In this document: in pieces, positions 41,821 through 64,000 of the stretch
Layout: each line of letters opens with the position of its first letter
How positions within the stretch are numbered: position 1 is the first letter of the stretch
NCBI RefSeq assembly: GCF_014764305.1
Contig: NZ_CP061703.1
Span: 1,392,800-1,456,799, forward strand
Direction of reading: 5' to 3'
DNA length: 64,000 nucleotides
From: Mesoflavibacter profundi
Lineage (GTDB): Bacteria > Bacteroidota > Bacteroidia > Flavobacteriales > Flavobacteriaceae
Notes under the pieces: model-generated
Databases searched by the model: none
Seen by the model: only the letters and a program-made list of their open reading frames with translations
What the model was told of the DNA's origin: nothing
Translations under genes and position numbers: made by a program

Positions 41821-42219
41821 TTGAATAATTTAAACTTTGAAGCTTTTCTTGAATGTATATTGATTTTTTATTCAACCGTAACGGAATGTTCTCCAACGGG
41901 ACAACACTCAGCACCTATTAAACCTATATACTCACTTAATATGTCTGTAAGTTTATCATCATCTAATCTATGGACATCAACTTACAGTCCATATCAGCAA
42001 GAACTTTTTGATATCATAAGTAAGTTTCATGAGAAAGATGGATGGAACTTTAAACAGATATCGGATTGGTTGATTGAGAACAATTATAAAACACCTAGAG
42101 GTAAGACGTTCACTCACACGCATTGTTGGAGTATTTATAAGAAGAAGAGCAAAAGCATTCAGAGGTTCAGTCGAGAGTTCGAACCTACAATAACGGATGT
42201 AAAGATTAATCAGATTTAA
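41821..42219 (+). pseudogene. Duplicated 3' fragment of the recombinase-domain ORF at 57328..57999 (last about 114 codons identical, unique 18-codon TTG-initiated N-terminus)
   Basis: The protein is identical to the C-terminus of the 223-aa ORF from VTECSPTGQ... onward. Confidence 0.6.
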
Positions 42220-42840: not shown

Positions 42841-42970
42841 AAATGTTATTAATTTAGGTTGTATTAAATAATAACACTAATATAGTGATAATTCCCTGAC
42901 AAGTGTATGTTTACGGCAATTATCTTATCGTGATTATGTATATTGAATAGATTAGACTTTTAAATAATAA

Positions 42971-43039
42971 CATTACAAATTTTGACCTGTGATAGAACTT
43001 TAATTAGTAATCTAAAAGTACAGGTCAAAATTTGTAATG
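42971..43039. promoter_or_regulatory. Perfect 20-bp inverted repeat (cattacaaattttgacctgt / acaggtcaaaatttgtaatg) with a 29-bp spacer, upstream of the recombinase gene; candidate recombination or operator site
   Basis: The dyad symmetry is read directly from the sequence. A mirrored copy lies at 56508..56576. Confidence 0.4.
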
Positions 43040-43182
43040 CAAGTGTCTGGTTTAACTTTTAATAAAGAGTTTTGTGACTATTATATAATTGGTATGACAT
43101 TGCCAAAATTAAAATGGATAGTTTGGTATAATGTTTATCGGGTTTTTCATATATTTAAGTGTAAATAATAACATATAAATAT

Positions 43183-45108: not shown

Positions 45109-45560
45109 TTTTTTATTTCGATTATCAATTTATCTAGTTTCTCAATCCAATTATCTTCATTAGTCTTAAAAAGAACTGCTCCAATATAAAATTCTTCAAA
45201 TTCCTTGTTATATTTTTGATTCAATTCTTTAAATGTCAATGCTCCATCATTAGTTGGAAATACATCAAACATTGTAAAGAGAATAGTAGGTAGGAATAAA
45301 TTTTTTCGTTTCATTTCTCTTAGAACTTTCTCTCCTCCAAATTGTTCATAATTTCCCCCCAAATCATTATTACCCTTCCCCCACAAAGGTATAGTCATAT
45401 CTAAAATCAGAAAATCATATTCTCTGAAATTTTTCTTTAACTCGGATACACCACTTTGATAGGATTCTTTTAAAGTAATAGAGTCACTACTAAAAAATTC
45501 TTTTAGACGAGCAATTTTAGTTATATCATCCTCAATAATTAATACTTTATTCATCTTCAT
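45105..45560 (-). CDS. Stand-alone receiver (REC) domain protein (DtcB-like)
   Basis: VLIIEDD and FLILDMTIP motifs in 151 aa with no output domain. A 14-bp overlap with the upstream kinase gene. Confidence 0.6.
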   Translation of the reverse strand: MKMNKVLIIEDDITKIARLKEFFSSDSITLKESYQSGVSELKKNFREYDFLILDMTIPLWGKGNNDLGGNYEQFGGEKVLREMKRKNLFLPTILFTMFDVFPTNDGALTFKELNQKYNKEFEEFYIGAVLFKTNEDNWIEKLDKLIIEIKK

Positions 45561-48500
45561 TTAATTTTACAAAAGGAAAAAATAATTCAACTGTTAAGTT
45601 ATTTTCGGAAAATGAAAAGTCAAACATGTCTGTTTTAGCAGAGGTTTCATAAATTAGAATCCTTTTAATTTTATCAAAACCACTTTTATCCTCTTTATTT
45701 GACCTATCAATATTGGAATGGTCGTTCCAATTTTGCTTTACTTCTTCAAGTCTTTTTCTGTTTTCAGAATAATCTTCATTTTCCTTTAAATTATTACAAA
45801 ATGCAATTTTTACATATTTATCAAGATGTAAATCGATACTAATATGAATCTTAACCTCGTTAGGTGTCAGTTTAGAATGAGAAATGATATTATTTAATAA
45901 TATATTAAAAACAAATATTGTACTTGAATAAACACCAAAAGGAGCTATATTATTTTGAATAGTAGGTTTTATGAGAAAATTAGGATTAATTCGATTAGTA
46001 AGAACAATACTGGCTTCAATTACAGTATCTATACTGAGAAGTGATGTAGAGTTTGTAGTGTTTAAATAAAACCAGTCTGATATAACCTCTAACTCTTTTT
46101 GTATTTCAGTGCCAGATTTAATTAAATTAGGTATAAGTTCACAATCTGAAGTTAAATTAAATTCTCGTACTTCTTCTATACAATTATCAATAATTTCTTG
46201 AAAATTAGTCCTAATATCACCTTTAAATTTATTTACTATTTTTTTCTGTAATGATATAAGAGTGTGCTCAACTAAATTTGTAAGCAACATATCTATAATA
46301 GTTTCAGTAGTATCAAATTTTTCTCTATTTCTTTCAAAAAAATCATATAATATATCATCATTTGTGAAAAACCCAAAAATACCATAATCCTTTTCTTTTG
46401 TCTTTTCTGTTTTAATCTGGATTAGTTTATCTACTATGAAAATAATATATTCGTCAATTTCAGATGAGAATTTCTTTAGAGCTTTTTGTACTCTAATATT
46501 TTCTACGAAATAACCACTGAGTTGTTGCGCCCATACATCATTATCCTTATATTCATTATTAAGTTTTGATGTTACCAAATTAAGTTTCTCAAAAACACTT
46601 CGGATATGGTTTTTCAAAGCACCGTGTCGAATTCTGGTGCTTAAGCAGCTGTCTAAACCATGCTCTTTACTAAATAAAAAATTCTCTCTAGATTCTAAAT
46701 AAATATTTTTAAAAGCCAAATATTCTGCGGAATTATATGAGTCAATTTTTGATGAACTAATAGATAGTAATTCATCCCAGTTTTGCTTGTTAGATGGATT
46801 AAAACTAATTAATTTTTGCGCTGATGAAGATTGTTCTATTTCTTTAAATCTTTTAAAATCATCCTTAAACTTTTTAATTTGTTTTTTTTTAAGATTGTCT
46901 ACATCAATATACAGTCTACCTTCATCTACCTCTTTTAAAACTTTTCTAACTGAATTGGTTCTTAATATCTCATTTATTTCTTTTTCATATTCGGTTTTTG
47001 AATCATTATTTAATTTTATTAGAATATTAAGAATCATTACCCTATCTTCTTCGACTTCACTAATAGAACCATAATCTGAGGAATATTTAATTGTGTCAAT
47101 GGTTGATACATTTTCAAGGAAATAAATAGTCTTACTTAAACCAAAGCGATGAACAAAAGAATCAATATCTAAATTTTTTAGGTCTTCAATATTATTTGCG
47201 AATAAAAAATCATCATAAGCTTCATATAGGTCAAACTCTTTACTGTGTAATGACATAACGATAGGAAACTCAATATGCACCTCAAAACCTTGCTTGTTTT
47301 TACACTCTTTAATTTTATTAAATAAAAGGGATGTGTTAATTTTCCTTGAACTAAAATTCTCATCAAAAAAAACAAGTCCATATAATTTTAATGCTTTGGA
47401 TAGTAAATTTTGATGAAGGTAAGAGTGGAATAATAAACTTATTTTTCTTTCTCTGTAATAATTGATTGTATCAAGTTTTGAGTCATTTTCTAACAATTCT
47501 ATTACTTCAGGATATTCCTTTTTATTATAATATCTTATAGCTTCAAAAGTTTTGTTTTGTCTATAATCTTTAGAAATTGGTTTTTTTAGATTTGTTGTTA
47601 GACCTAATTTGTATTCAGCAACTTGAAAAGAAAAATTGTTTCTAACAGGGGTAAGATTTTTTATAATACATTCTCTCGTATTATGAAAGAAAAGAAACTT
47701 GCTAGTTGTGTAGCTAGAAGAAAACAAGCCTCTTATGTAGTGTTTTTCTAAATTTGCTTCAATTTCAGATATTAAACTGAATACTTGTTTTCCAAAACTT
47801 GTATTCATATATCTTAACGCTGTAGTTAATAAGAAATCAAAATGCTCTTGTTCATCATTTTTGAAACTAAATACCTGAAATACACTAAAAAGAATTTTAT
47901 CGATAGCTCTACTGATGCCTGTTTTAATAAAATCAGACTCTAAATTAATTAAAGATTTACAATAAAATTCGTAATATTCAAATTCTAAAGGGTTTTCTTT
48001 TAACCCTTCTAACGAAAACTTAAGTGTTTTTTTAAACAACCCCTTATAGTAAGAGTTGGAACAATTAAAAAACAATTCATTATCATTGGCTGTATCGTAG
48101 TCATCCTTAATATTTAATAAATTATAAAGATTTATTAATCTACTGTCGTTATGAATAATTTTTTTAGCTTTTTTAAGAAAGACTTGATAGAACCTATCAT
48201 GCTTATTGATTTTATTAGTGTTATATATTATAGCATCAATTAAAATCAAATATTGGTCTACTATAGAAAGTGTGTTTGCTACATAGTAAACGCTTTCTAA
48301 ATTTTTATAAGAATAATCGTAATTGGGGTAATTAAAATTTTTGAACACCAAAAAATCTTCAATAACTCCATCTGCATTGATGGTGTCTATGTCATTTTGA
48401 AAATGATTTAAAAAGCTCTCAAAACTCATTTTAGATTCAACTCTTTTACTACTTGAATTAATAATGAATTCATAAAGAGGAGTTTTAATCTTAGTAAGGT

Positions 48501-48957
48501 AGTCACTTAGTAAATTCCAATTAGCTTCAGTCCCATTTATATTATCTTCCACAAATAAATGAGCCTCAATGCTCCATAGGCTAATTCCAAATTTGTCTTC
48601 TATTTCTAAAACTATTAATCTCGCTTCATCATAATTATCCAACATTAATAATGTCTCGAAATTATTTTTCAATTTCATGAAATCATTAATTTCTGAGAAA
48701 TAATCTTCTAAAATATTAGTTAGCCATCTAAACTCAATCTTTAAGTTTTGAGAAAAATTAAACGGTTCTTTCAGATGTATATCCTCAATTGAATTAAAAT
48801 AGGGGGTTTTGTGCAAAAAGTTTTTGAATAAAGAATGAAGTGAAAGAGCTTCTTTAAATTGACCTGAATTTACGTTATGCTTAATTTGGTCAATTTTCTG
48901 TGGTAGAGATGTGTCTCTATTTCTTAAAATTTCAACAATTTTTTTTCTATACTGCAT
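45547..48957 (-). CDS. Large sensor protein with C-terminal histidine-kinase-like ATPase domain (DtcA-like)
   Basis: 1136 aa. The C-terminal roughly 200 aa have a GHKL-ATPase-like pattern, and a putative H-box (LSTRIRHGALKNHI) precedes it. Confidence 0.55.
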   Translation of the reverse strand: MQYRKKIVEILRNRDTSLPQKIDQIKHNVNSGQFKEALSLHSLFKNFLHKTPYFNSIEDIHLKEPFNFSQNLKIEFRWLTNILEDYFSEINDFMKLKNNFETLLMLDNYDEARLIVLEIEDKFGISLWSIEAHLFVEDNINGTEANWNLLSDYLTKIKTPLYEFIINSSSKRVESKMSFESFLNHFQNDIDTINADGVIEDFLVFKNFNYPNYDYSYKNLESVYYVANTLSIVDQYLILIDAIIYNTNKINKHDRFYQVFLKKAKKIIHNDSRLINLYNLLNIKDDYDTANDNELFFNCSNSYYKGLFKKTLKFSLEGLKENPLEFEYYEFYCKSLINLESDFIKTGISRAIDKILFSVFQVFSFKNDEQEHFDFLLTTALRYMNTSFGKQVFSLISEIEANLEKHYIRGLFSSSYTTSKFLFFHNTRECIIKNLTPVRNNFSFQVAEYKLGLTTNLKKPISKDYRQNKTFEAIRYYNKKEYPEVIELLENDSKLDTINYYRERKISLLFHSYLHQNLLSKALKLYGLVFFDENFSSRKINTSLLFNKIKECKNKQGFEVHIEFPIVMSLHSKEFDLYEAYDDFLFANNIEDLKNLDIDSFVHRFGLSKTIYFLENVSTIDTIKYSSDYGSISEVEEDRVMILNILIKLNNDSKTEYEKEINEILRTNSVRKVLKEVDEGRLYIDVDNLKKKQIKKFKDDFKRFKEIEQSSSAQKLISFNPSNKQNWDELLSISSSKIDSYNSAEYLAFKNIYLESRENFLFSKEHGLDSCLSTRIRHGALKNHIRSVFEKLNLVTSKLNNEYKDNDVWAQQLSGYFVENIRVQKALKKFSSEIDEYIIFIVDKLIQIKTEKTKEKDYGIFGFFTNDDILYDFFERNREKFDTTETIIDMLLTNLVEHTLISLQKKIVNKFKGDIRTNFQEIIDNCIEEVREFNLTSDCELIPNLIKSGTEIQKELEVISDWFYLNTTNSTSLLSIDTVIEASIVLTNRINPNFLIKPTIQNNIAPFGVYSSTIFVFNILLNNIISHSKLTPNEVKIHISIDLHLDKYVKIAFCNNLKENEDYSENRKRLEEVKQNWNDHSNIDRSNKEDKSGFDKIKRILIYETSAKTDMFDFSFSENNLTVELFFPFVKLNEDE

Positions 48958-52198: not shown

Positions 52199-55100
52199 AT
52201 GACACATAAGAGCATTCAATTTAAAATAACATCAGTTGAAAAAAATCAAAATGGGTATACACCTCTTGATTATGATAAAAAATACTTTACGGACTACAAT
52301 GCTAGATTCAGTATAGGTAGTAAGGATTATGGTCGTAAAGTGTTATTCTACGGAAGAACTTCTCTTAAATATAGATTTCAGTCCGAAATAGAGGAGGCTA
52401 AAAGAGCTGAACTATCCATTTTCGAACATGAAGAAAAGTCAAAAACACCTAGAAGTATAAACGAAAAGGATTATCATGTTGATGGAATATATGCACATTA
52501 CAGTACTAATGAACTTATTATTGCTTTAAATGCATTTTCTGCCCAAAATATTTCTTCCCATTATTCTATGAAAATGGAATTGAAAGACCTTAAGAAGAAA
52601 TCCATTGAACAAGGTATTGAATTTGAAATACCTTCAAGATATAATTACAAAGCTAAGGGATTAGTTATTTCAAAACGATTAATGAAAGGAGGGATAAGTA
52701 CACAGTATAATTCTATTTGTCAGGGTTCTCCATTTTTGTTTTTTGATGTAGATGTAAAGCCAGAAGAAAACCCAAGATTATATACAGATGATGGGATTCC
52801 TAATAAGTTAAATACCGAAGTGTTTGAATATTTAAAAAAAATCGCTCTAATAACAGCTAGGTCAGCAAGTGGACTTGGTATTTGTGGTGTTATATATGTT
52901 CCTAGTTTAGCGAATGAAACTGATAATAGACTTCATAAAAGTATGGGGATGGCAGTTTATGATTACATTAATAATAAACTAGACCTACCTTGTAAAATTA
53001 AATTTGATGAAGCTCAAGCTCAATTTACTCAAGGACGTTCGTTTCCTGTTCAGTTTTATAGTAACAATGACAGATATAATTGGGATAAAATAGAATTAAA
53101 TAAAGATGCTATCGAATTTAAAATTGAGTCTATTGAAGTTGATAAAGAACTAAATGAAGTTAGATATGAAAATAAAAGAGAGGAATCAACATACACATAC
53201 ACATACACTGATGATGATTATAATCAAGAATATAACAATCAACCATTAATTAAAAAATATAACATGGAACATTTCTGTTATGAAATATTCATGAACAATG
53301 GATATGAAATAACTAAAGAAGAAAATTCTCAAGGATATTCTAAACTATCAAAAGTAGGTAAGAGAAATGATTCCATATCATTATCAAGTAATAACACATT
53401 TAAATGTTTTACGAGTAGCCTAAAGGGTTTTACCCCATTTGATTTATTATCTCAACTTGAATTTAATGGCGATTCCAGAGAGGCTTATAATTATGTTAAG
53501 AGTATTTATGAAGAAAAAAATAACAAAGAAATATTTGATACAAAATCTGTTCTGAATAATTGGGAATTGCTTGATGATGAAGATAAATTTTATGACCATC
53601 CAATGGAGAGTCTTGAAAAAACTTACTCATTAGTAGAGTTAAATGAAGTCATTGGTTCAAATACAATTTTTAACTCTTTTAAAATTGACGATAATGGTAA
53701 ATTTGAAGTTGTAGATACTACTGCAAAAGATTTATTAGGAATAACAGAACGAGATATTGAATTATCTCTTCATAGAACATACAAATCCACAGGTTACGAA
53801 TATCCTGTTCTTGACATAATTAAAAATACTGATATATGCACAACTTTAAAGGTTGAGGGATTTCTAACAACAGATTTAATCATTAAGAATTGTACATCAT
53901 ATATAAACTATATATATGCAGGTTGTGGATTAGGAAAAACAACAACCTTTCTGGGTAAAAACAATCCTAATATAGATGGCTTAACGAAAGATTTTAGTGT
54001 CTTATTTATAGTACCTCGTAAAATGATGGTAGAACAACAAGCTCTAACAGCAAATGGTTTATGTCAAATAGTTGCATCTACTGGAGATAAAATAATTAAA
54101 ACTAATGATGGCATTGAATATATTCAGTCAATTGGTAACAATTCTGAAAAATTATATGATGATAAAAATAATCTTAAATCTGTAATTTTAACCTATGACC
54201 AATTCGTTCATCTTCCAAATGATTTAGTTTCTAAATATGATTACATTGTTTTTGACGAAGCTCACTTATTAACTTCAGATTCTTATAGAGAAGCAATTCC
54301 AAAATCATTTTTAAAAATTGAAGAAGTTAAAAAAGAAAACTCAAAGGCAAAATTTATTTTATTATCTGCAACTCCTAGTATAGAATTATTGACAATATCT
54401 AAATATCATAAAAATGATTTTAAACTTTTAAACATTGTTAAATCTCACAAGGAGACTCCATCTTTATACGTGCATAATTTTATTCATACCGATAGAGTAA
54501 AAAAAGATATCCAAATATTTGAGCAAGTAGTATCTGATTTAGACCAAGGAAAGAAAGTTGTAATTTTTTGTGAAAATAAAAATCAAATAAATTTACAATG
54601 GAACAAGTTAGAGGAATACTGCAATGATATGGGGATTAAGCCTCCATCAAGAAGTTATGTTTCATCAGAATCAAAAGAGCTAGACCTTTATAAAGAATTA
54701 GTAAAAAATGAAAATCTTAATGTAGATTTAATGTATAGTACCTCTGTATTAAATGTTGGTGTAAATATATCATCAGGGGTAGAGAAAGGGGTAAGTTTTA
54801 TTTTTGATTATAGTTCTAATAATGGCTATGACACAGCTATAGGGCAAATTCAATTATTATTTAGAAACCGTTCTAGATTAACTGAAATACATTGTTTCTC
54901 TAATTTGATGGATACTTCAAATCCTAATTTGTTCAAAATTAATAAACCTGCAATCAAAAACGATGAAGTCAATTCTATCTTTGACAAGAACAAATTAGAT
55001 AAAACTTATGAAAATAAAACGCTAGCAAAAAGCACTAAATATAGTGATGTGAGTTTTAGTCATTTTGAAGAAGTATCAGATTGTGCAACAGCTACATTTG

Positions 55101-56407
55101 AACTAAACGAGCAGTTAATCACAGAGCAAAAGAGATTGGATACCTTTATTAAACAAGCAGTAACTCATGACTGTAAGGTTTATTATGTTTTGAATTCAGA
55201 TACAGGAAACTCAAAATTGAAAACAGGAGATTTATCAAACGAGTTCTCATTGAATGTCATTAATGAATTACTAACTTTAGATACAGGTCAAAGAATTTAT
55301 TTTGAAAAAGGAATACAATCAACTGCTGATAAAATAGAGCCTACATTTAGTTTAGACCAGAATAGCCTACAAATAAGAGACGAAATCAGGTATTATCAAT
55401 GTGCGTATCATTCTGCTTTTCATCCATTATTACAAAAATTAAGAAGGAGTTATAACACCTTAATGTATTATTACAGGGAAAAAGATAAACTTAAAGACGT
55501 TTTCAATTTTATTATTAACACATCAAGTAAAAAAGCAATAGACAAAAGAATTGTAGATTATATTAACACTTATAAAACCATTCATGAAGATAGCATAATT
55601 ACACAAATGACAGACAGTGTTATTAGTTCAAAAGGAGATTGTATTGATAAGATAACTTTAAAAAACATCCTTAATTCAATTATACCAAATGAAATAAGCT
55701 CTCATTTTTCAAAGAATCTTTCTGATGAATTAATAAAAGGCAATTATCAAAATGTTAAGGTTATAAGTGAACCACAATTTCAACATTTTTTTAAAGAACA
55801 TATTATCAATAAAGTTAATGACTCTTTTCTAAAATTATATAAAACTTCTACCTCAAAGACAGATAGTGAAGAGTTAGAAATAGAGAGTTTGAAAATTTTA
55901 GAGAGTAATAGGAAAATTGAGTCAGATGTCAATGATTCCCCTATTTTAAGTTTTTTAGGGTTTGATATGAATATTAACTCTTTAAATAATGCAGATTTAT
56001 TTGAAAAACTTCTTAAGGAGCTTTCTGATAAATACCCTAGAGAAGGGTTGAATCAACATATATTAGTTGATTATAACATAGAAAAGGATAACTTTAATTC
56101 TAAAAAAACCATATCCATTAGTATAAACGATTTTTATTTAAAATACGATAATGAATTGTCTGTTTTTAGAGAAAAACCTGAAAATAGAAGAAGTAAATTT
56201 TGTTATGCAATTATTGACAACGGAACTGAAGAAGTGATAATTGAAAAAAGCATGAAATTATTACATTCAACGTTAAGTGAAAAAGGTATTTTATCTAAAA
56301 TGGTGAGTCCTCAAAATTACAACTTTGAAAAACTGAATAATTTTAATAAAACAGATAAGTTAAATTCTTGTAGGAATTATACGGTAATCAAAAAGATTCC
56401 TATATAA
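52199..56407 (+). CDS. Large primase-like (DxD) N-terminus fused to an SF2 DEAH-box helicase
   Basis: FFDVDVK is an AEP-primase-like motif in the N-terminal third. Walker A (AGCGLGKTT), DEAH (IVFDEAHLL) and SAT (LLSATP) helicase motifs follow. 1402 aa. Confidence 0.55.
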   Translation: MTHKSIQFKITSVEKNQNGYTPLDYDKKYFTDYNARFSIGSKDYGRKVLFYGRTSLKYRFQSEIEEAKRAELSIFEHEEKSKTPRSINEKDYHVDGIYAHYSTNELIIALNAFSAQNISSHYSMKMELKDLKKKSIEQGIEFEIPSRYNYKAKGLVISKRLMKGGISTQYNSICQGSPFLFFDVDVKPEENPRLYTDDGIPNKLNTEVFEYLKKIALITARSASGLGICGVIYVPSLANETDNRLHKSMGMAVYDYINNKLDLPCKIKFDEAQAQFTQGRSFPVQFYSNNDRYNWDKIELNKDAIEFKIESIEVDKELNEVRYENKREESTYTYTYTDDDYNQEYNNQPLIKKYNMEHFCYEIFMNNGYEITKEENSQGYSKLSKVGKRNDSISLSSNNTFKCFTSSLKGFTPFDLLSQLEFNGDSREAYNYVKSIYEEKNNKEIFDTKSVLNNWELLDDEDKFYDHPMESLEKTYSLVELNEVIGSNTIFNSFKIDDNGKFEVVDTTAKDLLGITERDIELSLHRTYKSTGYEYPVLDIIKNTDICTTLKVEGFLTTDLIIKNCTSYINYIYAGCGLGKTTTFLGKNNPNIDGLTKDFSVLFIVPRKMMVEQQALTANGLCQIVASTGDKIIKTNDGIEYIQSIGNNSEKLYDDKNNLKSVILTYDQFVHLPNDLVSKYDYIVFDEAHLLTSDSYREAIPKSFLKIEEVKKENSKAKFILLSATPSIELLTISKYHKNDFKLLNIVKSHKETPSLYVHNFIHTDRVKKDIQIFEQVVSDLDQGKKVVIFCENKNQINLQWNKLEEYCNDMGIKPPSRSYVSSESKELDLYKELVKNENLNVDLMYSTSVLNVGVNISSGVEKGVSFIFDYSSNNGYDTAIGQIQLLFRNRSRLTEIHCFSNLMDTSNPNLFKINKPAIKNDEVNSIFDKNKLDKTYENKTLAKSTKYSDVSFSHFEEVSDCATATFELNEQLITEQKRLDTFIKQAVTHDCKVYYVLNSDTGNSKLKTGDLSNEFSLNVINELLTLDTGQRIYFEKGIQSTADKIEPTFSLDQNSLQIRDEIRYYQCAYHSAFHPLLQKLRRSYNTLMYYYREKDKLKDVFNFIINTSSKKAIDKRIVDYINTYKTIHEDSIITQMTDSVISSKGDCIDKITLKNILNSIIPNEISSHFSKNLSDELIKGNYQNVKVISEPQFQHFFKEHIINKVNDSFLKLYKTSTSKTDSEELEIESLKILESNRKIESDVNDSPILSFLGFDMNINSLNNADLFEKLLKELSDKYPREGLNQHILVDYNIEKDNFNSKKTISISINDFYLKYDNELSVFREKPENRRSKFCYAIIDNGTEEVIIEKSMKLLHSTLSEKGILSKMVSPQNYNFEKLNNFNKTDKLNSCRNYTVIKKIPI

Positions 56408-56419
56408 TTTAATTAATTG

Positions 56420-57672
56420 ACCAAACTATCCATTTTAATTTTGGCAATGTCATACCAATTATATAATAGTCACAAAACTCTTTATTAAAAGTTAAACCAG
56501 ACACTTGCATTACAAATTTTGACCTGTACTTTTAGATTACTAATTAAAGTTCTATCACAGGTCAAAATTTGTAATGTTATTATTTAAAAGTCTAATCTAT
56601 TCAATATACATAATCACGATAAGATAATTGCCGTAAACATACACTTGTCAGGGAATTATCACTATATTAGTGTTATTATTTAATACAACCTAAATTAATA
56701 ACATTTATGAGCAATATTGGATACTACCTAAGAACATCTCACTACCTTCAAAACATCGGAACTCAAATTGATAAAATTGAAGATGGTTGGAAGGTGTATG
56801 AAGATAAAGGTGTCAGCGGTCGTATCCCATTCCTCGAACGTCCAAGTGGTAAGCGACTTATTGAGGATATTGCAAACGGTAAGATTAATCAAGTGATAGT
56901 CCTTCGTATCGACCGTCTTGGAAGAGACCTAGAGGACATACTTAAAACCATTAAAACTATCCATAGCTATAATGTGCCTATCACATCGCAAAATGAGGGT
57001 ATAACTACTCTTATTGATGGTAAAGAGAGCGTGATGTCTAACTTGCTTATTAATATATTAAGCTCGATTAGTGAGTTCCAATACCACCAGACTAGAGAAA
57101 AAACATTAGCAGGAATTGAACGTGCTAAATTAGATGGTAAATATAAAGGACGAAAAATCGGTAGTACAGAAAGTGTTGAGACCTTCTTATCTAAACCAAA
57201 AGTTCAAAAGATAATGACCTTACTTAATGAAGATATAGGAATCAGAAAGATTAGTCGAATCGTTGAATGCTCACCTAACTACATATATAAGGTAAAGAAT
57301 GCCATGACAACTAATCTTTCTGCCTAATTAAATCTGATTAATCTTTACATCCGTTATTGTAGGTTCGAACTCTCGACTGAACCTCTGAATGCTTTTGCTC
57401 TTCTTCTTATAAATACTCCAACAATGCGTGTGAGTGAACGTCTTACCTCTAGGTGTTTTATAATTGTTCTCAATCAACCAATCCGATATCTGTTTAAAGT
57501 TCCATCCATCTTTCTCATGAAACTTACTTATGATATCAAAAAGTTCTTGCTGATATGGACTGTAAGTTGATGTCCATAGATTAGATGATGATAAACTTAC
57601 AGACATATTAAGTGAGTATATAGGTTTAATAGGTGCTGAGTGTTGTCCCGTTGGAGAACATTCCGTTACGGT
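56420..57672. repeat. Right arm of the perfect 1253-bp inverted repeat
   Basis: See the left arm. Confidence 0.9.
56707..57327 (+). CDS. Serine recombinase, resolvase/invertase family (copy 2, identical)
   Basis: The protein sequence is identical to 42220..42840. Confidence 0.85.
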   Translation: MSNIGYYLRTSHYLQNIGTQIDKIEDGWKVYEDKGVSGRIPFLERPSGKRLIEDIANGKINQVIVLRIDRLGRDLEDILKTIKTIHSYNVPITSQNEGITTLIDGKESVMSNLLINILSSISEFQYHQTREKTLAGIERAKLDGKYKGRKIGSTESVETFLSKPKVQKIMTLLNEDIGIRKISRIVECSPNYIYKVKNAMTTNLSA

Positions 57673-57999
57673 GGAGTAGTCACGAACGGGGGTGAGTTGA
57701 TTTAACTTTTTACGACCTCGTTTAACTGGCATAATAGATATTTGGGTTCCGTTTTCGGAACCCTTTTCTTTTTCTAATACGACAGGTATTTTAAAATTAA
57801 TATTTAAAAGGTGCAGTTTATTCTCATTATCATAGTTCACTGTTATTTTATCTATTATAACCTTGAGAAACTCCTTTTTCATCTCGTCTGAAATATTGGT
57901 TTGAGTTTTGATATGTTCTGAGAAATTGTCAATCCAGTCAAACCATTTCTGTTCAGTTCCTAATTGCCTTAGTTTACTTCTCAAACCTTCAATCTTCAA
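57328..57999 (-). CDS. Recombinase-domain protein (large-serine-recombinase-like 'recombinase' motif at C-terminus); TTG start, possibly a truncated remnant
   Basis: The C-terminus (LIENNYKTPRGKTFTHTHCWSIYKK) fits the G-x-W...IL pattern of the recombinase domain. I found no ATG or GTG in the 43 in-frame codons upstream before a stop at 58129..58131. Confidence 0.45.
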   Translation of the reverse strand: MKIEGLRSKLRQLGTEQKWFDWIDNFSEHIKTQTNISDEMKKEFLKVIIDKITVNYDNENKLHLLNINFKIPVVLEKEKGSENGTQISIMPVKRGRKKLNQLTPVRDYSTVTECSPTGQHSAPIKPIYSLNMSVSLSSSNLWTSTYSPYQQELFDIISKFHEKDGWNFKQISDWLIENNYKTPRGKTFTHTHCWSIYKKKSKSIQRFSREFEPTITDVKINQI

Positions 58000-58140
58000 T
58001 TTGACTTGTTTAAGCTTTATGGCGAGGTCTTTTTTTAAAAGTTTATAAACCTGTTCAGAAGAAAACTCTTGTAATATATTCCGTGATTCGATTTCTACTA
58101 AACCTCTTTCAATAGTTGTCTTAGTTTTTTAATGTAATCT

Positions 58141-61100
58141 CTATAAAGATTTACGTAACATTTCTTTTACCATATTAAAAACCATTGTATTAAACTCCTC
58201 TTTAGCTTCTTCGTTGTCATTAATGACTTTATAAAAATCAAAATTTGTTGTTACGTGTTTCAGTAATTCGTCTTGTGCTAATTTATCACTTGTAATTCTT
58301 GCATTCTGTTCGTCAGAATGCTCGATAGAATTTAGCATATCTTTGTTTTTAGCCACTCCATTTACAACACTTTCAGCCATTTGCCTAACCTTATCAGCAT
58401 CTTCAAATTCAGTTCCATAGCGGTCATTAAAAGTTTTAATAATATTAGATAATTGGTCAATTTCAGGGTCAGATGTTCCGCCTCTCATTTCTGTAGGAAT
58501 AGGTTGTAAATCTTCTCCCTGTTCCATTGCTATATTTGTGGTGGCTTCCAATTGTAGGCGGTAACTATCCATATCTATATTATCTAAAACACCTTGTGAA
58601 AAATCAGGTTCAGCATCAGTTCCTAATTTGCTTTGTAAATGATTTAAGAAAATATACAGACGCTCTAAATATGCATTTTCAAAATCTACAATTTGAGATA
58701 AGAATATATACAAACGTACATAAGTCTTTACTTTTGCTCTAAAATCCGCTTGTTGCTCTTCTTCTAAATCTTCTCTAAAAACAACACTTGACTGGTCTAA
58801 AATGTCGTGTAACTGGTCTACTGTTACATTTGCTAATATTTTATTTGAAAACTTTTCTACTTGCTCTCTAGAATAGACTTGATAACTGTCTAAAGCATCT
58901 TGTAAGTCAAATAATTTATTTGGGTCTGTAGCCTCTCCTAAAATAGTATTTTCAAAATATGGTTTAAATGCTTTTTCTATATCCTCAGAAGAATTGGCAA
59001 AATCTAAAACAAAAGTATCTGTTTTTAACGGATGACTTCTATTTAGTCGGGATAAGGTCTGTACCGCATTTACACCACCTAATTTCTTATCTACATACAT
59101 TGTATGAAGCAGTGGTTGGTCAAAACCTGTCTGAAACTTATTAGCTACTAATAAAAATTTGTATTCATCTTTTTCAAATTCTTCAGGTATGTTACCGCTT
59201 GGAAAACCATTTAAACTTGATTCAGTTTCTCCATCTATTTCCCCAGAAAAACCAACAATTGCTTTGTATGGACTATTAATAGATTTTAGATAAGCATCAA
59301 AAGCGTGTTTGTATTGTACCGCTTTAGCTCTGCTACTTGTAACCATCATAGCTTTTGCCTTGTTACCCATTTTATTCTTCTTAACTACATTATCTATAAA
59401 ATGGTTAATCATTAAAATGGATTTCTTTTTGATAGCATGGTCATGACCTTCGACATAGGCTTTCAGTTTTTTTTGAGCCTTTTTCTTATCGTACTCTGGG
59501 TCGTCTTCTATCTTTTTCAGTAAAGCATAAAAGCTTTGGTATGTTGTATAATTAAGCAATACATCTTTAATAAAACCTTCTTCTATGGCTTGTTTCATTG
59601 AGTACAAATGAAATGCTTTGTATTTGGTTTTTCCATCCTGTTCAAATGGTTCGCCAAATAATTCTAAGGTTTTGTTTTTTGGCGTAGCTGTAAAAGCAAA
59701 ATAACTTGCATTAGGTAAGAGTTTACGAGCTTTAACTATTGCCCTTATAAAATCTTCACCTGTTACTTCATTATCTTCTGTTTCATCATAGTTTTCTAAA
59801 TCACTTTGAAGCTGTTCTTCGTCTGAAACTTTGGCTAGTGTTTCGTTTAATTTACGAGCCATTTGTCCACTTAAACTACTATGTGCTTCGTCTATAATGA
59901 TTCCAAAATTATTGCTTGGTAAATCACCAATATCCTCGACAATATGGGGGAATTTTTGAATGGTAGTAATTATTATTTTTTTTCCTTCTTCTAATGCAGT
60001 TTTTAATTGCTTACTTCCATCTGTAATAGCTTGTACAACACCTTTGACTTGTTGGTATTGTTTTATGTTCTCTCGTATTTGCTTATCTAAAACTCTTCGG
60101 TCTGTGATGACAATAACGGTATCAAAAATTGTTTTAGAACCTGATTTATCATGTAAACCAACCAGTTGGTGAGCCAACCAAGAAATGGAGTTACTTTTAC
60201 CTGAACCTGCCGAATGTTGTATCAAATATTTTTGACCTGCCCCTTTTTCTTGCGCATCTGCTAATAATCGGGAAACAGCGTTTAATTGATGAAAACGAGG
60301 AAATATAAGTTTTTTAGTTTTTTTTACTTTTTTCTTACCCTTAGCGTCTATATACTCTTTGTCTTCTGTGATTAATTTAGCATAGTTTTGAAGGATATTG
60401 GTAAGAGTATCTTTAGTTAAAATCTCTTTCCACAGGTAATCTGTTTTTATACCACCATTAGGTTCATTTCCTGCTCCGTTTTTATTTCCTTTATTGAAAG
60501 GTAAAAAATAAGAGCTGTCGCCTTCTAGCTTTGTACACATCCATACTTCTTCTGTGTCTACAGCAAAATTAACAACCATCCTGCCTAAACGAAATAACTC
60601 TTCGTTTGGGTCACGGTCAGTTTTGTATTGTTTTATGGCATGTTTTACATTTTGATTGGTAAGCTCGTTTTTAAGCTCAAAGCTGATAATTGGCATACCA
60701 TTAATAAACGTAACAATGTCTAAAGATTTTTTGTTTTTTGGCGAAAAATAGACTTGACGCATCACCGAAAAAATATTGGCTTGGTAATAGTCATTTGCTT
60801 TTTTGTTGAATACAGAAACTGGTTTGTCATAAAACAAGCGTAGCTTGGTATCTGTAAAGCCATCTACAATACCTTTACGCAAAACTTCTATAATGCCCTT
60901 TTGTTTTATTTGGTCGTTTAAACGCTTTACTATTTTTTGTTTGTAAAGGTCTTTATGGTAACGTTTTAATTTGTCTAATACTTTGGCTTGTGTTTTTTCT
61001 AAAAACTGAAACAGCAAATCTTCATCAATACAATTGATATTATTGTAATTGCTGTTTGCTCTTTCTACATAGTTGTTGCTATTAACTAAATAATCAACAA

Positions 61101-61146
61101 TATGCTTTTCAAAGCCATTTTCTTTTGTATTGGTGTTTTTACTCAT
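58141..61146 (-). CDS. hsdR: Type I restriction enzyme R subunit
   Basis: An HsdR-type N-terminal nuclease region, SF2 motifs including GIIIDEAHSS, and 1001 aa. Confidence 0.85.
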   Translation of the reverse strand: MSKNTNTKENGFEKHIVDYLVNSNNYVERANSNYNNINCIDEDLLFQFLEKTQAKVLDKLKRYHKDLYKQKIVKRLNDQIKQKGIIEVLRKGIVDGFTDTKLRLFYDKPVSVFNKKANDYYQANIFSVMRQVYFSPKNKKSLDIVTFINGMPIISFELKNELTNQNVKHAIKQYKTDRDPNEELFRLGRMVVNFAVDTEEVWMCTKLEGDSSYFLPFNKGNKNGAGNEPNGGIKTDYLWKEILTKDTLTNILQNYAKLITEDKEYIDAKGKKKVKKTKKLIFPRFHQLNAVSRLLADAQEKGAGQKYLIQHSAGSGKSNSISWLAHQLVGLHDKSGSKTIFDTVIVITDRRVLDKQIRENIKQYQQVKGVVQAITDGSKQLKTALEEGKKIIITTIQKFPHIVEDIGDLPSNNFGIIIDEAHSSLSGQMARKLNETLAKVSDEEQLQSDLENYDETEDNEVTGEDFIRAIVKARKLLPNASYFAFTATPKNKTLELFGEPFEQDGKTKYKAFHLYSMKQAIEEGFIKDVLLNYTTYQSFYALLKKIEDDPEYDKKKAQKKLKAYVEGHDHAIKKKSILMINHFIDNVVKKNKMGNKAKAMMVTSSRAKAVQYKHAFDAYLKSINSPYKAIVGFSGEIDGETESSLNGFPSGNIPEEFEKDEYKFLLVANKFQTGFDQPLLHTMYVDKKLGGVNAVQTLSRLNRSHPLKTDTFVLDFANSSEDIEKAFKPYFENTILGEATDPNKLFDLQDALDSYQVYSREQVEKFSNKILANVTVDQLHDILDQSSVVFREDLEEEQQADFRAKVKTYVRLYIFLSQIVDFENAYLERLYIFLNHLQSKLGTDAEPDFSQGVLDNIDMDSYRLQLEATTNIAMEQGEDLQPIPTEMRGGTSDPEIDQLSNIIKTFNDRYGTEFEDADKVRQMAESVVNGVAKNKDMLNSIEHSDEQNARITSDKLAQDELLKHVTTNFDFYKVINDNEEAKEEFNTMVFNMVKEMLRKSL

Positions 61147-61148
61147 AG

Positions 61149-63116
61149 TTAATTCAAATTGTGGTCATGAAAATAATCATTTAGCAATACCATTATTTTT
61201 TCAAAATGTTCTTTTGCTTTTTCATCATTCCAAACATCTTCATTATATATTAAATCTGATTTTAAGCTATCTATACTTCCTTTTACTTTTTTATTTTCAA
61301 ACATACTGCGTTTAACACCATATGCTTTGTCACTGTATTCTGAATTTATACTTCTAGTAACCAGCACTAAATTGCCCATTGTATCTAAGGTTTCAATACA
61401 AACCTTGTCTCTAGGGTCTCTTGGGTTTTGCGGGCCTATATGTTCAATTGAGTTTCTTGCTGTCATTTTATAATTACTCCATTCATCTTCTTTATCCAAT
61501 TGACCTCTATAATACCAGAGTATAAATTCTATTTTATAAAACCAATAGTGTGGAAAGCTAACACCTGAATTATTTAAATTCTCCAGAGTACCGAAAACTG
61601 TTTCTGCATCACATTCTACATCTAAAAAATCTTCCATAGAATTAATAGTTCTTTCTGGTAAAGAAATATGCTCCGTATTTGAACTAAATAAGGTATTGTC
61701 TAATTGTCTTAACCAGTAATAGGCATCATTAAATGATGGTTTTTCATCAATCATCCAATATAAAAAAGGTGTCAACCAGTATTGAGTCGTGTTTTGTTGA
61801 GAATGGTATAATATGCTTTGTAGCAATGCCATTCCGTTCAAACTGTCTTTATTCAATCTTCTCAAATAATAAGTCCAGCCTCCTTTTTTTTGGTTTTGTT
61901 TATAAATGTCCTTAATACCGTGTTCTTCTTTGTCTTCTAAAACAGTAATCCACTTTATTACATATCTGTCAAAGCAATATCTAACTTTAAACAATGTTTT
62001 AAAGAATTTAACTACAAATTTTTCGTTGATAATTTCAGACTTCAATAAGTGCTTATCAAAAGTTTCTAAAAGCTCTTTTTCATTGATACGTAAAATATCC
62101 TCATCATCATTTTTGAATAGAAAAATACGTAATGTATGTAGCAAAAGTTGAGGAAAAGAGAGAATACTCCTCACTGGTTCAAACTCATCTTCATTTGATT
62201 CAGGATGATGAGTAATATTGTCTTTAATTGAAGTTGCAATATCCTCGTATTGTTCAGGATGTTCTAACACATCGCTTAGCATAAGAGTGGTTTGAGGATT
62301 TGAACTTTCGAATAAATTTAAAACATCATTAATGTGAAATCCATTATGATAAATATGAGCTACATCCTTTGAAGAGCCAATTTCTAAGGCAATAACACGT
62401 TCTAAATAATTATCCATTACAGAACATACTTGCCATAGTTTGGCATATTGATTCCTCTTTTCTACATTTTTAATGTAGTTAAGTAGCCTAGCTTTAAGTA
62501 TCTCGTGATGTGCCAACTGCTCACCTCTGTTGTTTAAGGCTTCAAACAATTTGTTAAGGTCAGTAGTTTTTGGCACATCGGTTAATACCATTTTTACTTT
62601 TTCAAAAATATAATTTGAGAATTTTATTTTTTCTTCCTCATCTTCTAAGTGTTGTAAAATCAATTGGTTAATTTGATTTCGAGCTTTCCCTATTTTTAAT
62701 AAATCAGAATAGTCTTTTGAATCATTTGATGAAGAATGTTCTGCATTACCTATATTATTGAAATAGTCTGTTACATTTTGACGTATGGCAAACTTTAACC
62801 TAAGTTCTCCATTTTTATAGGTGAATGGCTCAAGATTACCTCCTAATTCATTGGATAATAACCATAGTGTGGTAAATCGCTGCTGCCCATCTACCAGGTC
62901 ATACAACTTGTCGCTATTTTCATTATTTACAGTTATGACTCCACCTATGTAGTATATGTCCTTATCTGCTTTATATGCTGTAAGTAAATCTTCAAATAAG
63001 GTTTTTACTTGCTCTTCTGTCCAAACATACAATCGCTGATAGATAGGAATATTGAACTCAAATTCTTGAGCTACAATTGATTTTATATCTGTTAAATTTG
63101 ATACTATGCTATCCAT
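61149..63116 (-). CDS. GmrSD-family type IV restriction enzyme (DUF262 + DUF1524)
   Basis: An N-terminal DGQQR motif (LVDGQQRFTTL) typical of DUF262, and a C-terminal SIEHIGPQNP His-Me finger typical of DUF1524. Confidence 0.8.
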   Translation of the reverse strand: MDSIVSNLTDIKSIVAQEFEFNIPIYQRLYVWTEEQVKTLFEDLLTAYKADKDIYYIGGVITVNNENSDKLYDLVDGQQRFTTLWLLSNELGGNLEPFTYKNGELRLKFAIRQNVTDYFNNIGNAEHSSSNDSKDYSDLLKIGKARNQINQLILQHLEDEEEKIKFSNYIFEKVKMVLTDVPKTTDLNKLFEALNNRGEQLAHHEILKARLLNYIKNVEKRNQYAKLWQVCSVMDNYLERVIALEIGSSKDVAHIYHNGFHINDVLNLFESSNPQTTLMLSDVLEHPEQYEDIATSIKDNITHHPESNEDEFEPVRSILSFPQLLLHTLRIFLFKNDDEDILRINEKELLETFDKHLLKSEIINEKFVVKFFKTLFKVRYCFDRYVIKWITVLEDKEEHGIKDIYKQNQKKGGWTYYLRRLNKDSLNGMALLQSILYHSQQNTTQYWLTPFLYWMIDEKPSFNDAYYWLRQLDNTLFSSNTEHISLPERTINSMEDFLDVECDAETVFGTLENLNNSGVSFPHYWFYKIEFILWYYRGQLDKEDEWSNYKMTARNSIEHIGPQNPRDPRDKVCIETLDTMGNLVLVTRSINSEYSDKAYGVKRSMFENKKVKGSIDSLKSDLIYNEDVWNDEKAKEHFEKIMVLLNDYFHDHNLN

Positions 63117-64000
63117 TGCTTTCGGCTCTTTACTTCAATTAATCTATTATCAACATCCTTATTATAATACTCACATAACCTTTCTATATATCGGTCTATT
63201 ACATTGTTTTTTACTTCTTTTTTTCCATTTAAGAACCCATTATTGATATAGATGTTTTCAGTAGGTTTTGCTTGATTAATAAAACTAAACACTTCATTAG
63301 GCAAATAAGCACTGCATATTACATCCAATAAGCTATTAGACGCATTTTTTAAACTGTTTTTTATGGCTTCTTGACGCACATAATATTTCTCTAACCTAAT
63401 GGCTCCTAAATAATAATCGAAATACTGTATGGCTTTAAAGAACTGTTCTTCCTTAAAATTGTCATAGTAGGCTACTAAACACATTTGCATATAATAACGT
63501 AAATACTCCGACATATCTTTGGTGTACAAAGCATTATAAAAAAGCAATGCTTTTTCTATTTCAAGAGACTTCTGTTCTTTGGTGTTAAAAAGAAAACGAA
63601 ATATGGCGTGATACTTATCTGTATAATCAAAAAAGTTCTGTCCTTTATAGATGGGTTGCCTTATAGCAAAAGGATAGTCTTTTTTAGCTAAAGGTTTTTC
63701 TGCTGATACCAGTAGTACACCATTCTCTGTATATTCTAATTGGTGATAACGCATATTGTTATTATTAGGAAATAAACGAAAAGCGTTTTTAGTCTCTGTA
63801 CTGTACGTGTTTTTTTGAAACTCTGTTAACACTTCCGTTTTATTAGGATACGGGAAATGCGATTGCCCTTTCCATTGTCTCACCTTAAACAATATTTCAT
63901 TGAATAAATGTTTGAGGTCTAGCAAATGGTTATCTTCTTTTCTGGCTTTAAAGGTAATATCTTCCCAAGATTTTGCTTTTTGCTCTTGTAGTTTTTCGGG
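63104..64000 (-). CDS. Hypothetical protein, 5' end beyond the window (frame stays open to position 64000)
   Basis: The ORF is co-oriented with the defence genes and overlaps them by 13 bp. The open frame continues upstream of the TTG the ORF track used as a start. Confidence 0.4.
   Translation of the reverse strand, partial: PEKLQEQKAKSWEDITFKARKEDNHLLDLKHLFNEILFKVRQWKGQSHFPYPNKTEVLTEFQKNTYSTETKNAFRLFPNNNNMRYHQLEYTENGVLLVSAEKPLAKKDYPFAIRQPIYKGQNFFDYTDKYHAIFRFLFNTKEQKSLEIEKALLFYNALYTKDMSEYLRYYMQMCLVAYYDNFKEEQFFKAIQYFDYYLGAIRLEKYYVRQEAIKNSLKNASNSLLDVICSAYLPNEVFSFINQAKPTENIYINNGFLNGKKEVKNNVIDRYIERLCEYYNKDVDNRLIEVKSRKQWIA

What the first reader, a model, noticed from the sequence alone, without database searches (positions are those of the whole stretch)
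58141..64000. Defence island: type I restriction R subunit without hsdM/hsdS in view, followed by GmrSD type IV enzyme and an unknown co-oriented gene
hsdR (1001 aa) is immediately preceded on the same strand by a DUF262/DUF1524 GmrSD-like modification-dependent nuclease and a further overlapping ORF. No methylase or specificity subunit appears in 64 kb. Either hsdMS lie beyond the window, with defence genes inserted between them and hsdR as in enterobacterial hsd-mcr-mrr 'immigration control' loci, or hsdR is orphaned. This island abuts the recombinase-bounded cassette, so the whole 22 kb is a defence hotspot.
Basis: partly seen in the sequence, partly recalled or inferred. Interest (0 to 1): 0.55.

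Follow-up and report, generated by a model that had tools for sequence, protein, structure and literature searches.

The report
Type I restriction operon with embedded TgvAB
The "orphan" restriction gene is the last gene of a complete type I restriction-modification operon whose methylase and specificity genes lie just past the window edge. The two genes in front of it are a homologue of the two-protein anti-phage nuclease TgvAB, already characterised in Vibrio cholerae, so this is an ordinary new example of a known arrangement.

Summary
hsdR (58141-61146, -), a DUF262/DUF1524 GmrSD-family gene (61149-63116, -) and a third overlapping gene (63104 to the window edge, -) are all present, and the window holds no hsdM or hsdS.

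An 11.2-kb contig of GCA_042665575.1 is 100% identical to window 58091-64000. Past the window end it continues with the rest of the third gene, then hsdS (533 bp beyond the edge), hsdM, a small HTH gene and a divergent large serine recombinase. So hsdR is not orphaned.

The third gene encodes a 475-aa DUF262+DUF7834 protein. It and the GmrSD gene match V. cholerae TgvA and TgvB (29% and 32% identity, reciprocal best). HsdM and HsdR are each 45% identical to their VPI-2 counterparts. Gene order hsdM-hsdS-tgvA-tgvB-hsdR is the same as VC1769-VC1765, a cluster shown by experiment to combine type I restriction-modification with a two-protein type IV enzyme against glucosyl-5hmC phages.

The TgvA/TgvB-like pair is an obligate gene couple: in 28 of 28 metagenome loci with room downstream, plus 6 looked-up contexts, the two genes are adjacent. 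It usually stands alone; embedding in a type I operon is the minority case.

Verdict: new member of a known kind, low interest. Side observations are inverted repeats bracketing both this module and the neighbouring PDC-M60 cassette.

The parts
58141..61146 (-). hsdR, type I restriction subunit (1001 aa), last gene of the operon
   Evidence: Pfam HSDR_N, SWI2_SNF2/ResIII, DEAD and T1R_D3-like. PADLOC REase_I E 4e-40. NCBIfam hsdR TIGR00348 E 7e-63, below its curated cut-off. 45% identical to V. cholerae VC1765 over 377 aa. Nuclease motif D143...E157-L-K159, QxxxY, GSGKS 314 and DEAH 419 are intact. K159 aligns with the ELK lysine mutated as HsdR[K172A] in PMC11411939.
61149..63116 (-). tgvB-like gene: DUF262 (GmrSD_N) + DUF1524 (GmrSD_C) nuclease subunit, 655 aa
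   Evidence: Pfam. 32% identical to VC1766 (TgvB) over 414 aa, E 1e-47, and a better match to TgvB than to TgvA. YQR26, DGQQR76-80 and the His-Me finger E558-H559...N582...N591 are invariant among 5 homologues.
63104..64000 (-). 3' 897 nt (C-terminal 298 codons) of the tgvA-like gene. The full gene is 475 codons (DUF262 + DUF7834) and would run to window-equivalent position 64531
   Evidence: The frame is open to the window edge. DUF7834 E 6e-46. Full length is seen on L001 4770-6197, with GmrSD_N + DUF7834. 29% identical to VC1767 (TgvA) over 364 aa, E 1e-28. VC1767 itself hits DUF7834 at E 3e-38. The 13-nt overlap with tgvB-like suggests translational coupling.
57665..58129 (-). Context: 3' fragment of a large serine recombinase gene (no start, no catalytic domain), lying 11 nt after the hsdR stop. 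It is one arm of an inverted repeat that brackets the whole module
   Evidence: The translation continues the 406-aa N-terminal recombinase ORF of L001 in frame. It is 99.4% identical to Olleya marilimosa CAM030 scaffold end L003 1-468. In CAM030 the 12.3-kb RM contig has perfect 465-bp terminal inverted repeats made of this sequence.

Best explanation
The finding is the distal half of one tightly packed six-gene operon on the minus strand: HTH regulator, hsdM, hsdS, tgvA-like, tgvB-like, hsdR. It sits in an Olleya (Flavobacteriaceae) chromosome.

It combines two restriction systems with opposite logic. HsdS (two target-recognition domains) and HsdM (NPPY N6-adenine methyltransferase) mark the host's bipartite target sites. 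With HsdR (PD-(D/E)xK nuclease plus SF2 translocase) they cut DNA that lacks the mark.

The embedded pair is a two-protein type IV (modification-dependent) enzyme of the GmrSD family. Both proteins carry a DUF262 NTP-binding sensor domain. Only the second carries the His-Me finger nuclease (DUF1524). The first carries the helical DUF7834 domain instead. By homology to V. cholerae TgvAB, the two act together to cut phage DNA carrying hypermodified cytosine, covering phages that escape the type I enzyme through base modification.

Shown here: gene content, order, intact motifs, homology to the VPI-2 cluster, and conserved pairing. Inferred: activity, the need for both proteins, and the modification recognised.
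For: - Continuation beyond the window. Contig JBHTCN010000008.1 (L001) is 100% identical to window 58091-64000. It carries HTH (67 aa), hsdM (603 aa; HsdM_N + N6_Mtase), hsdS (458 aa; Methylase_S), the DUF262+DUF7834 gene (475 aa), GmrSD and hsdR, with gaps or overlaps of 13 nt or less.
- Same strain. Two other contigs of that assembly are also 100% identical to the window (L002; L006 over 13,370 bp).
- hsdM and hsdS identity. PADLOC MTase_I E 7e-224 and Specificity_I E 3e-105. NPPY at residue 298.
- Same organisation in a relative. Olleya marilimosa CAM030, about 99% identical, has the same layout.
- Homology to VC1769-VC1765. Using sequences from Table S3 of PMC11411939: HsdM 45%, HsdR 45%, TgvA 29% (E 1e-28), TgvB 32% (E 1e-47), with reciprocal specificity.
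- Shared architecture. VC1767 has the same DUF262+DUF7834 architecture.
- Conserved pairing. A TgvB-type gene follows directly in Polaribacter, Chitinophaga, Peribacillus, two metagenome contigs, L012 and L014, and in 28 of 28 metagenome loci with room downstream.
- Motifs. DGQQR is invariant in both families and H...N...N is invariant in the TgvB-like family.
- Structure. The AlphaFold model of the TgvA-like protein (pLDDT 87.6) best matches SspE, DndI and BrxU.
- Experimental basis for function. TgvAB needs both genes, the DGQQR motifs and TgvB H571/N602, and it targets glucosyl-5hmC phages (PMC11411939; PMC11014532).
Against: - The window's own sequence past 64000 was not seen. The continuation rests on an identical contig from another assembly of the same strain.
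- Identity to TgvA and TgvB is only about 30%, and only the first ~400 residues of the Vibrio proteins were available, so TgvB's nuclease domain was compared by Pfam and motifs only.
- NCBIfam hsdM and hsdR hits fall below their curated cut-offs, and NCBIfam has no model that matches either Tgv-like protein.
- No expression, methylation or phage data exist for Olleya. Marine flavobacterial phages are not known to carry glucosyl-5hmC, so the substrate may differ.
Confidence: 0.88

Rival explanations
1. hsdR is an orphan or decaying remnant with no cognate methylase or specificity subunit.
For: No hsdM or hsdS lies inside the 64-kb window. A recombinase gene fragment and repeat elements sit directly downstream of hsdR, showing that the region has been rearranged.
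Against: The identical contig L001 carries intact hsdM and hsdS 0.5-3.7 kb past the window end, in the same operon. All HsdR catalytic motifs are intact. The same layout occurs in CAM030 and in L014.
Confidence: 0.02
2. The GmrSD gene is a self-sufficient single-protein type IV enzyme (like Eco94GmrSD, BrxU or HEC-06), and the upstream DUF262+DUF7834 gene is an unrelated or merely regulatory neighbour.
For: The 655-aa protein has the complete DUF262+DUF1524 architecture of single-chain GmrSD enzymes. Its best PADLOC models are the single-gene Orf5 and HEC-06 entries.
Against: The upstream gene overlaps it by 13 nt. The pair is kept together in every context examined, down to 25-35% identity and across Bacteroidota and Bacillota. 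In the characterised homologue neither gene protects alone, and the TgvA DGQQR motif is required (PMC11411939).
Confidence: 0.07
3. The embedded pair is not an independent system. It is a back-up effector held in check by the type I complex and released when a phage anti-restriction protein inhibits that complex, as PrrC is within EcoprrI (my own knowledge of the prr locus).
For: It occupies the same position, between hsdS and hsdR, as prrC and the C. jejuni rlo genes (PMC4619093). In E. coli the whole VPI-2 cluster protected 10-100 fold better than tgvAB alone (PMC11411939).
Against: tgvAB alone protects, and protection does not need HsdR nuclease activity; the authors attribute the difference to expression stoichiometry. 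Most homologous pairs stand alone, far from any type I genes: about 27 of 30 here, and 1,341 against 79 in PMC11411939.
Confidence: 0.05

Closest known systems
V. cholerae VPI-2 type I RM cluster with embedded TgvAB (VC1769-VC1765; Vizzarro et al. 2024, PMC11411939; Gomez & Waters 2024, PMC11014532)
   Same: Identical gene order hsdM-hsdS-tgvA-tgvB-hsdR. All five proteins are homologous (29-45% identity). TgvA is DUF262+DUF7834 and TgvB is DUF262+DUF1524. The DGQQR and His-Me motifs are conserved.
   Different: Different phylum (Flavobacteriaceae rather than Vibrio) and only about 30% identity for the Tgv proteins. There is an extra HTH gene at the operon's head and a divergent large serine recombinase. 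The module is bracketed by 465-bp inverted repeats. Substrate modification and activity are untested.
Five-gene clusters listed in Table S3 of PMC11411939 for Bacteroidota (Cytophaga hutchinsonii, Polaribacter pectinis)
   Same: C. hutchinsonii HsdS is 46% identical, TgvB 34% and TgvA 27%. The P. pectinis TgvA-like protein is 51% identical.
   Different: In P. pectinis the pair lies downstream of hsdR, separated from it by three genes, rather than between hsdS and hsdR.
Single-chain GmrSD-family type IV enzymes (Eco94GmrSD, BrxU, SspE, PADLOC HEC-06)
   Same: DUF262 NTPase/sensor plus DUF1524 His-Me nuclease. They are the best PADLOC, PDB and Foldseek matches. They also occur embedded in or next to other defence systems.
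   Different: Those act as single proteins. Here a conserved nuclease-less DUF262+DUF7834 partner is encoded upstream with an overlap.
RloF and other R-linked ORFs between hsdS and hsdR in Campylobacter jejuni; the general GmrSD / type I RM association (Machnicka et al. 2015, PMC4619093)
   Same: A DUF262 gene lies between hsdS and hsdR. Type I RM domains, DUF262 and HTH_19 are the most enriched neighbours of GmrSD genes.
   Different: RloF is described as a single DUF262 ORF. I made no sequence comparison with it here.
E. coli K-12 immigration control region (hsdRMS-mcrBC-mrr)
   Same: Type I and type IV restriction are encoded side by side.
   Different: The type IV enzymes there (McrBC, Mrr) belong to unrelated families and are separate transcription units, not embedded in the hsd operon. 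No McrB, McrC or Mrr domain was found here.

Membership tests
Type I restriction-modification system | HsdR with an N-terminal PD-(D/E)xK nuclease domain and an SF2 (DEAD/DEAH) translocase | tested here: met
   HSDR_N, SWI2_SNF2/ResIII and T1R_D3-like. D143, E157-x-K159, QxxxY, GSGKS and DEAH present. PADLOC REase_I.
Type I restriction-modification system | HsdM N6-adenine methyltransferase (HsdM_N + N6_Mtase, NPPY motif) in the same locus | tested here: met
   Not in the window. Present on the identical contig L001 1581-3392 (window-equivalent 65909-67720). Pfam, PADLOC MTase_I E 7e-224, NPPY298.
Type I restriction-modification system | HsdS with two target-recognition domains | tested here: met
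   L001 3392-4768 (window-equivalent 64533-65909). Methylase_S. Full-length match to PADLOC Specificity_I, E 3e-105. TRD1 differs and TRD2 is identical between this strain and CAM030.
Type I restriction-modification system | Sequence-specific m6A methylation and ATP-dependent restriction of unmethylated DNA | not testable with these tools
   Needs methylome sequencing and transformation or phage assays.
TgvAB two-protein type IV restriction system | TgvA: N-terminal DUF262 with QR/DGQQR/FxxxN motifs, and a non-nuclease C-terminal domain | tested here: met
   GmrSD_N + DUF7834 in both the Olleya protein and VC1767. 29% identity over 364 aa. YQR24, DGQQR74 and FDSQN153 are invariant or nearly so.
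TgvAB two-protein type IV restriction system | TgvB: DUF262 + DUF1524 with a His-Me finger H...N...H/N | tested here: met
   GmrSD_N + GmrSD_C. 32% identity to VC1766 over the first 414 aa. H559, N582 and N591 invariant. The C-terminal part of VC1766 was not available for direct alignment.
TgvAB two-protein type IV restriction system | tgvA immediately upstream of tgvB as one unit | tested here: met
   13-nt overlap. The same arrangement is seen, and in 28 of 28 metagenome loci.
TgvAB two-protein type IV restriction system | Embedded between hsdS and hsdR of a type I operon (the 'type I-embedded' form) | tested here: met
   L001 gene order. Also L014, L032 and L043.
TgvAB two-protein type IV restriction system | Both proteins required; restriction of DNA with glucosylated 5hmC | not testable with these tools
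   Known only for the V. cholerae system (PMC11411939, PMC11014532).
Enterobacterial hsd-mcr-mrr immigration control region | McrBC and/or Mrr type IV enzymes next to hsdRMS | tested here: not met
   No McrB, McrC or Mrr domain in the genes flanking hsdR. The type IV component belongs to the GmrSD family.

The most novel reading that the evidence does not exclude
The whole module (serine recombinase, HTH, hsdM, hsdS, tgvA, tgvB, hsdR; about 11 kb) lies between perfect inverted copies of the recombinase gene's own 3' end. These copies are 465 bp in CAM030. Both draft assemblies break exactly at them. The segment may therefore be a flip-flopping, recombinase-associated mobile defence cassette, rather than a fixed chromosomal operon with a fossil duplication. 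Separately, the Olleya TgvAB may sense a DNA modification other than glucosyl-5hmC.
Probability: 0.12. Interest if true: 0.4.

Novelty: new member of a known kind. Interest (0 to 1): 0.15.

Why it matters
It also names the "unknown" gene as a tgvA homologue.

It gives a well-documented flavobacterial example of the type I / TgvAB combination. It links the uncharacterised Pfam family DUF7834 to TgvA's C-terminal domain; no paper in the searchable library mentions DUF7834. And it independently confirms that the TgvA/TgvB pair is an obligate two-gene unit that only sometimes sits inside a type I operon. None of this changes current understanding.

Tried and rejected
- **39-bp inverted repeat as a recombination site.** I first read the 39-bp terminal inverted repeat of contig L001 as a defined inversion site that splits the recombinase gene. 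I rejected this. Contig L006 of the same assembly also overlaps its flanking repeat by exactly 39 bp at each end, so 39 bp is the assembler's overlap. In CAM030 the repeat is 465 bp.
- **Homology of DUF7834 to TgvB's linker or nuclease region.** Profile-profile comparison of the TgvA-like and TgvB-like families found only the DUF262 domain in common.
- **A solved TgvAB structure.** PDB sequence searches gave none; only weak matches to SspE and one DUF262 protein.
- **Curated names.** NCBIfam has no model for either Tgv-like protein. PADLOC 2.0 (2023) has no TgvAB model and gives only generic GmrSD-family hits.
- **Literature on DUF7834.** Zero papers.
- **tRNA integration site.** No tRNA gene in the window.
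- **Promoter and terminator scans.** Not run, because Bacteroidota promoters fall outside the tool's sigma-70 consensus.
Full report
**1. The observation**

The minus strand of 58141-64000 carries three tightly packed reading frames.

- 58141-61146 encodes a 1001-aa protein with HSDR_N, SWI2_SNF2/ResIII, DEAD and T1R_D3-like domains. It matches PADLOC REase_I at E 4e-40.
- 61149-63116 encodes a 655-aa protein with GmrSD_N (DUF262) and GmrSD_C (DUF1524).
- The third frame overlaps the GmrSD start by 13 nt. It is open all the way to base 64000, so the window truncates it. Its 298 visible codons are a DUF7834 domain (E 6e-46).

The window holds no relative of the cognate HsdM or HsdS (tblastn). 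No long open frame carries an amino-methyltransferase motif IV.

**2. What lies beyond the window**

An exact-protein look-up of the GmrSD protein returned contig JBHTCN010000008.1 of GCA_042665575.1 (L001, 11,210 bp). L001 5301-11210 is 100% identical to window 64000-58091. Two other contigs of that assembly are also 100% identical to the window: L002 (1,111 bp) and L006 (13,370 bp). The window therefore comes from the same strain.

L001 continues upstream with:
- the rest of the third gene (475 aa in all; GmrSD_N + DUF7834);
- hsdS (458 aa; Specificity_I E 3e-105);
- hsdM (603 aa; MTase_I E 7e-224, NPPY298);
- a 67-aa XRE-type HTH gene;
- a divergent large serine recombinase gene.

Converting with window = 69301 minus L001 position, hsdS would lie at 64533-65909 and hsdM at 65909-67720.

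A scan of species-representative genomes with a 39-mer from the hsdR-distal junction found the same module in Olleya marilimosa CAM030 at about 99% identity. That places the window in Olleya (Flavobacteriaceae).

**3. The embedded pair**

The 475-aa protein has 1,308 database relatives at E 1e-5 or better. Nearly all of the 120 listed carry both DUF262 and DUF7834, and most are about 470-490 aa.

- Each context I looked up has an overlapping GmrSD_N+GmrSD_C gene of 645-658 aa immediately downstream. These were Polaribacter pectinis (51% identity), Chitinophaga skermanii (39%), Peribacillus alkalitolerans (39%), metagenome contigs encoding one 35%-identical protein, and two closer relatives.
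- A metagenome scan followed by hmmsearch gave the same result for 28 of 28 TgvA-type ORFs with room downstream.
- Only about 3 of those 30 loci lie just after hsdM-hsdS.

So the pair is an obligate two-gene unit that is only sometimes embedded in a type I operon.

**4. Comparison with what is known**

A literature search led to Vizzarro et al. 2024 (PMC11411939) and Gomez & Waters 2024 (PMC11014532). In V. cholerae VPI-2 the type I operon hsdM-hsdS-hsdR (VC1769, VC1768, VC1765) is interrupted by tgvA (VC1767, DUF262 only) and tgvB (VC1766, DUF262+DUF1524).

Their experimental findings:
- Both genes are needed for protection.
- The DGQQR motifs of both proteins and TgvB H571/N602 are needed.
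- The target is T-even phage DNA carrying glucosylated 5hmC.
- Protection does not depend on HsdR nuclease activity.

Table S3 of the paper supplied the first ~400 residues of the Vibrio and Cytophaga proteins. BLASTP gave:

| Olleya protein | Vibrio counterpart | Identity | E-value |
|---|---|---|---|
| HsdM | VC1769 | 45% | 2e-112 |
| HsdR | VC1765 | 45% | 4e-96 |
| DUF262+DUF7834 protein | TgvA (VC1767) | 29% over 364 aa | 1e-28 |
| GmrSD protein | TgvB (VC1766) | 32% over 414 aa | 1e-47 |

Each Tgv-like protein matches its own counterpart better than the other one. VC1767 itself scores E 3e-38 on DUF7834, so DUF7834 is the TgvA C-terminal domain. Polaribacter pectinis, whose TgvA-like protein is 51% identical to the Olleya one, is listed among the paper's five-gene hits. 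Machnicka et al. 2015 had already noted that type I RM genes, further DUF262 genes and HTH_19 regulators are the commonest neighbours of GmrSD genes. They also noted that RloF sits between hsdS and hsdR in C. jejuni.

**5. Mechanism**

- Shown here: HsdR has intact nuclease and motor motifs (D143, E157-x-K159, QxxxY, GSGKS314, DEAH419). HsdM has NPPY. HsdS has two recognition domains. DGQQR and QR motifs are invariant in both Tgv-like families. The H559...N582...N591 His-Me finger is invariant in the TgvB-like family.
- The AlphaFold model of the TgvA-like protein (pLDDT 87.6) is a DUF262 fold followed by a mostly helical domain. Its best PDB matches are SspE, DndI and BrxU. No similarity between DUF7834 and the rest of TgvB was detected.
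- Inferred: HsdM2S methylates host sites and HsdR2M2S cuts unmarked DNA. TgvA-like and TgvB-like proteins act together as an NTP-regulated sensor-nuclease on hypermodified phage DNA, so the operon covers both unmodified and modified invaders. The HTH protein may control operon expression; it has only a weak PADLOC control-protein hit.
- Unknown: the modification recognised in Olleya.

**6. Surroundings**

*Recombinase fragment and inverted repeat.* Eleven nucleotides after the hsdR stop begins a fragment (58129 down to about 57665) identical in reading frame to the 3' part of the large serine recombinase gene. The 5' 406 codons of that gene lie at the far end of the module. In CAM030 the 12.3-kb module contig ends in perfect 465-bp inverted repeats of this sequence. 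One chromosome scaffold starts with the same 465 bp followed by the native stop codon.

The simplest reading is two inverted copies of the recombinase 3' end bracketing the module, so that the recombinase stays intact at the far end. The promoter region lies inside the segment, so flipping would not switch the operon off. The 39-bp inverted ends of L001 are only the assembler's overlap.

*Neighbouring cassette.* The recombinase fragment abuts a second structure: perfect 1,253-bp inverted repeats (41875-43127 and 56420-57672), each with a 206-aa resolvase gene. They enclose a 13.3-kb cassette with a three-gene match to the PADLOC candidate system PDC-M60 and a 1402-aa DEAD/ResIII protein. The 'defence hotspot' remark is therefore reasonable, though PDC-M60 is only a candidate system.

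**7. Verdict**

The locus is an uncharacterised flavobacterial member of an already described and experimentally characterised arrangement: a type I RM operon with embedded TgvAB. Novelty: new member of a known kind. Interest is low. The only loose end with some potential is whether the repeat-bracketed 11-kb module inverts or moves.

Noticed in passing
window 41875-43127 and 56420-57672: Perfect 1,253-bp inverted repeats, each carrying a 206-aa resolvase/invertase gene (42220-42840 minus strand, 56707-57327 plus strand). They enclose a 13.3-kb cassette. In the draft assembly the repeat is collapsed into a 1,111-bp contig (L002) that stops 142 bp short of the repeat's outer end, which suggests further copies or variants elsewhere in the genome.
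   Followed up: partly
window 44002-48957 (-): Three co-oriented genes (1136, 151 and 368 aa) match the PADLOC candidate system PDC-M60 A, B and C (E 2e-67, 4e-31, 7e-17). The two small proteins have receiver-like domains.
   Followed up: partly
window 52199-56407 (+): A 1402-aa protein with a central DEAD/ResIII helicase core and only weak PADLOC hits (SngC, Cas3). The rest of the protein is unassigned.
   Followed up: no
window 57665-58129 (-); L005 1-465 and L004 3877-4341: A 3' fragment of a large serine recombinase gene directly follows hsdR. In O. marilimosa CAM030 the same 465 bp forms perfect inverted repeats at both ends of the 12.3-kb RM contig. The whole recombinase + HTH + hsdMS + tgvAB + hsdR module is therefore bracketed by inverted copies of the recombinase's own 3' end. 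Both draft assemblies break there.
   Followed up: partly
window 57328-57999 (-): The listed 223-aa ORF is a chimera. Its first ~107 codons are the true recombinase C-terminus. From about 57678 it reads in frame into the resolvase repeat element, replacing the native last 8 codons (DFAKFRG in CAM030). That second part gives a weak Recombinase-domain hit.
   Followed up: partly
L005 3511-4593 compared with L001 3088-3888 (beyond the window): Between this strain and CAM030 (otherwise 95-99% identical), HsdS TRD1 is replaced while TRD2 is identical. HsdM is 603 aa here against 695 aa in CAM030, from a variable C-terminal insert. This implies different recognition half-sites in the two strains.
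   Followed up: partly
window 56508-56576 (and its copy at 42971-43039): A perfect 20-bp inverted repeat with a 29-nt spacer (CATTACAAATTTTGACCTGT / ACAGGTCAAAATTTGTAATG), lying 130 bp upstream of each resolvase gene. It could be a recombination site or an operator.
   Followed up: no
L014 3456-3812: In a relative whose TgvA-like protein is 94% identical to the Olleya one, an extra 118-aa PDDEXK_3 gene sits between hsdS and the tgvA-like gene. This slot in the operon appears to accept additional inserts.
   Followed up: no
L001 1377-1580 (window-equivalent 67721-67924): A 67-aa XRE-type HTH gene abuts the hsdM start codon and lies divergent from the recombinase gene. It may be a controller protein for the operon, which is unusual for type I systems. 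The PADLOC Control_protein hit is weak (E 5e-4).
   Followed up: no
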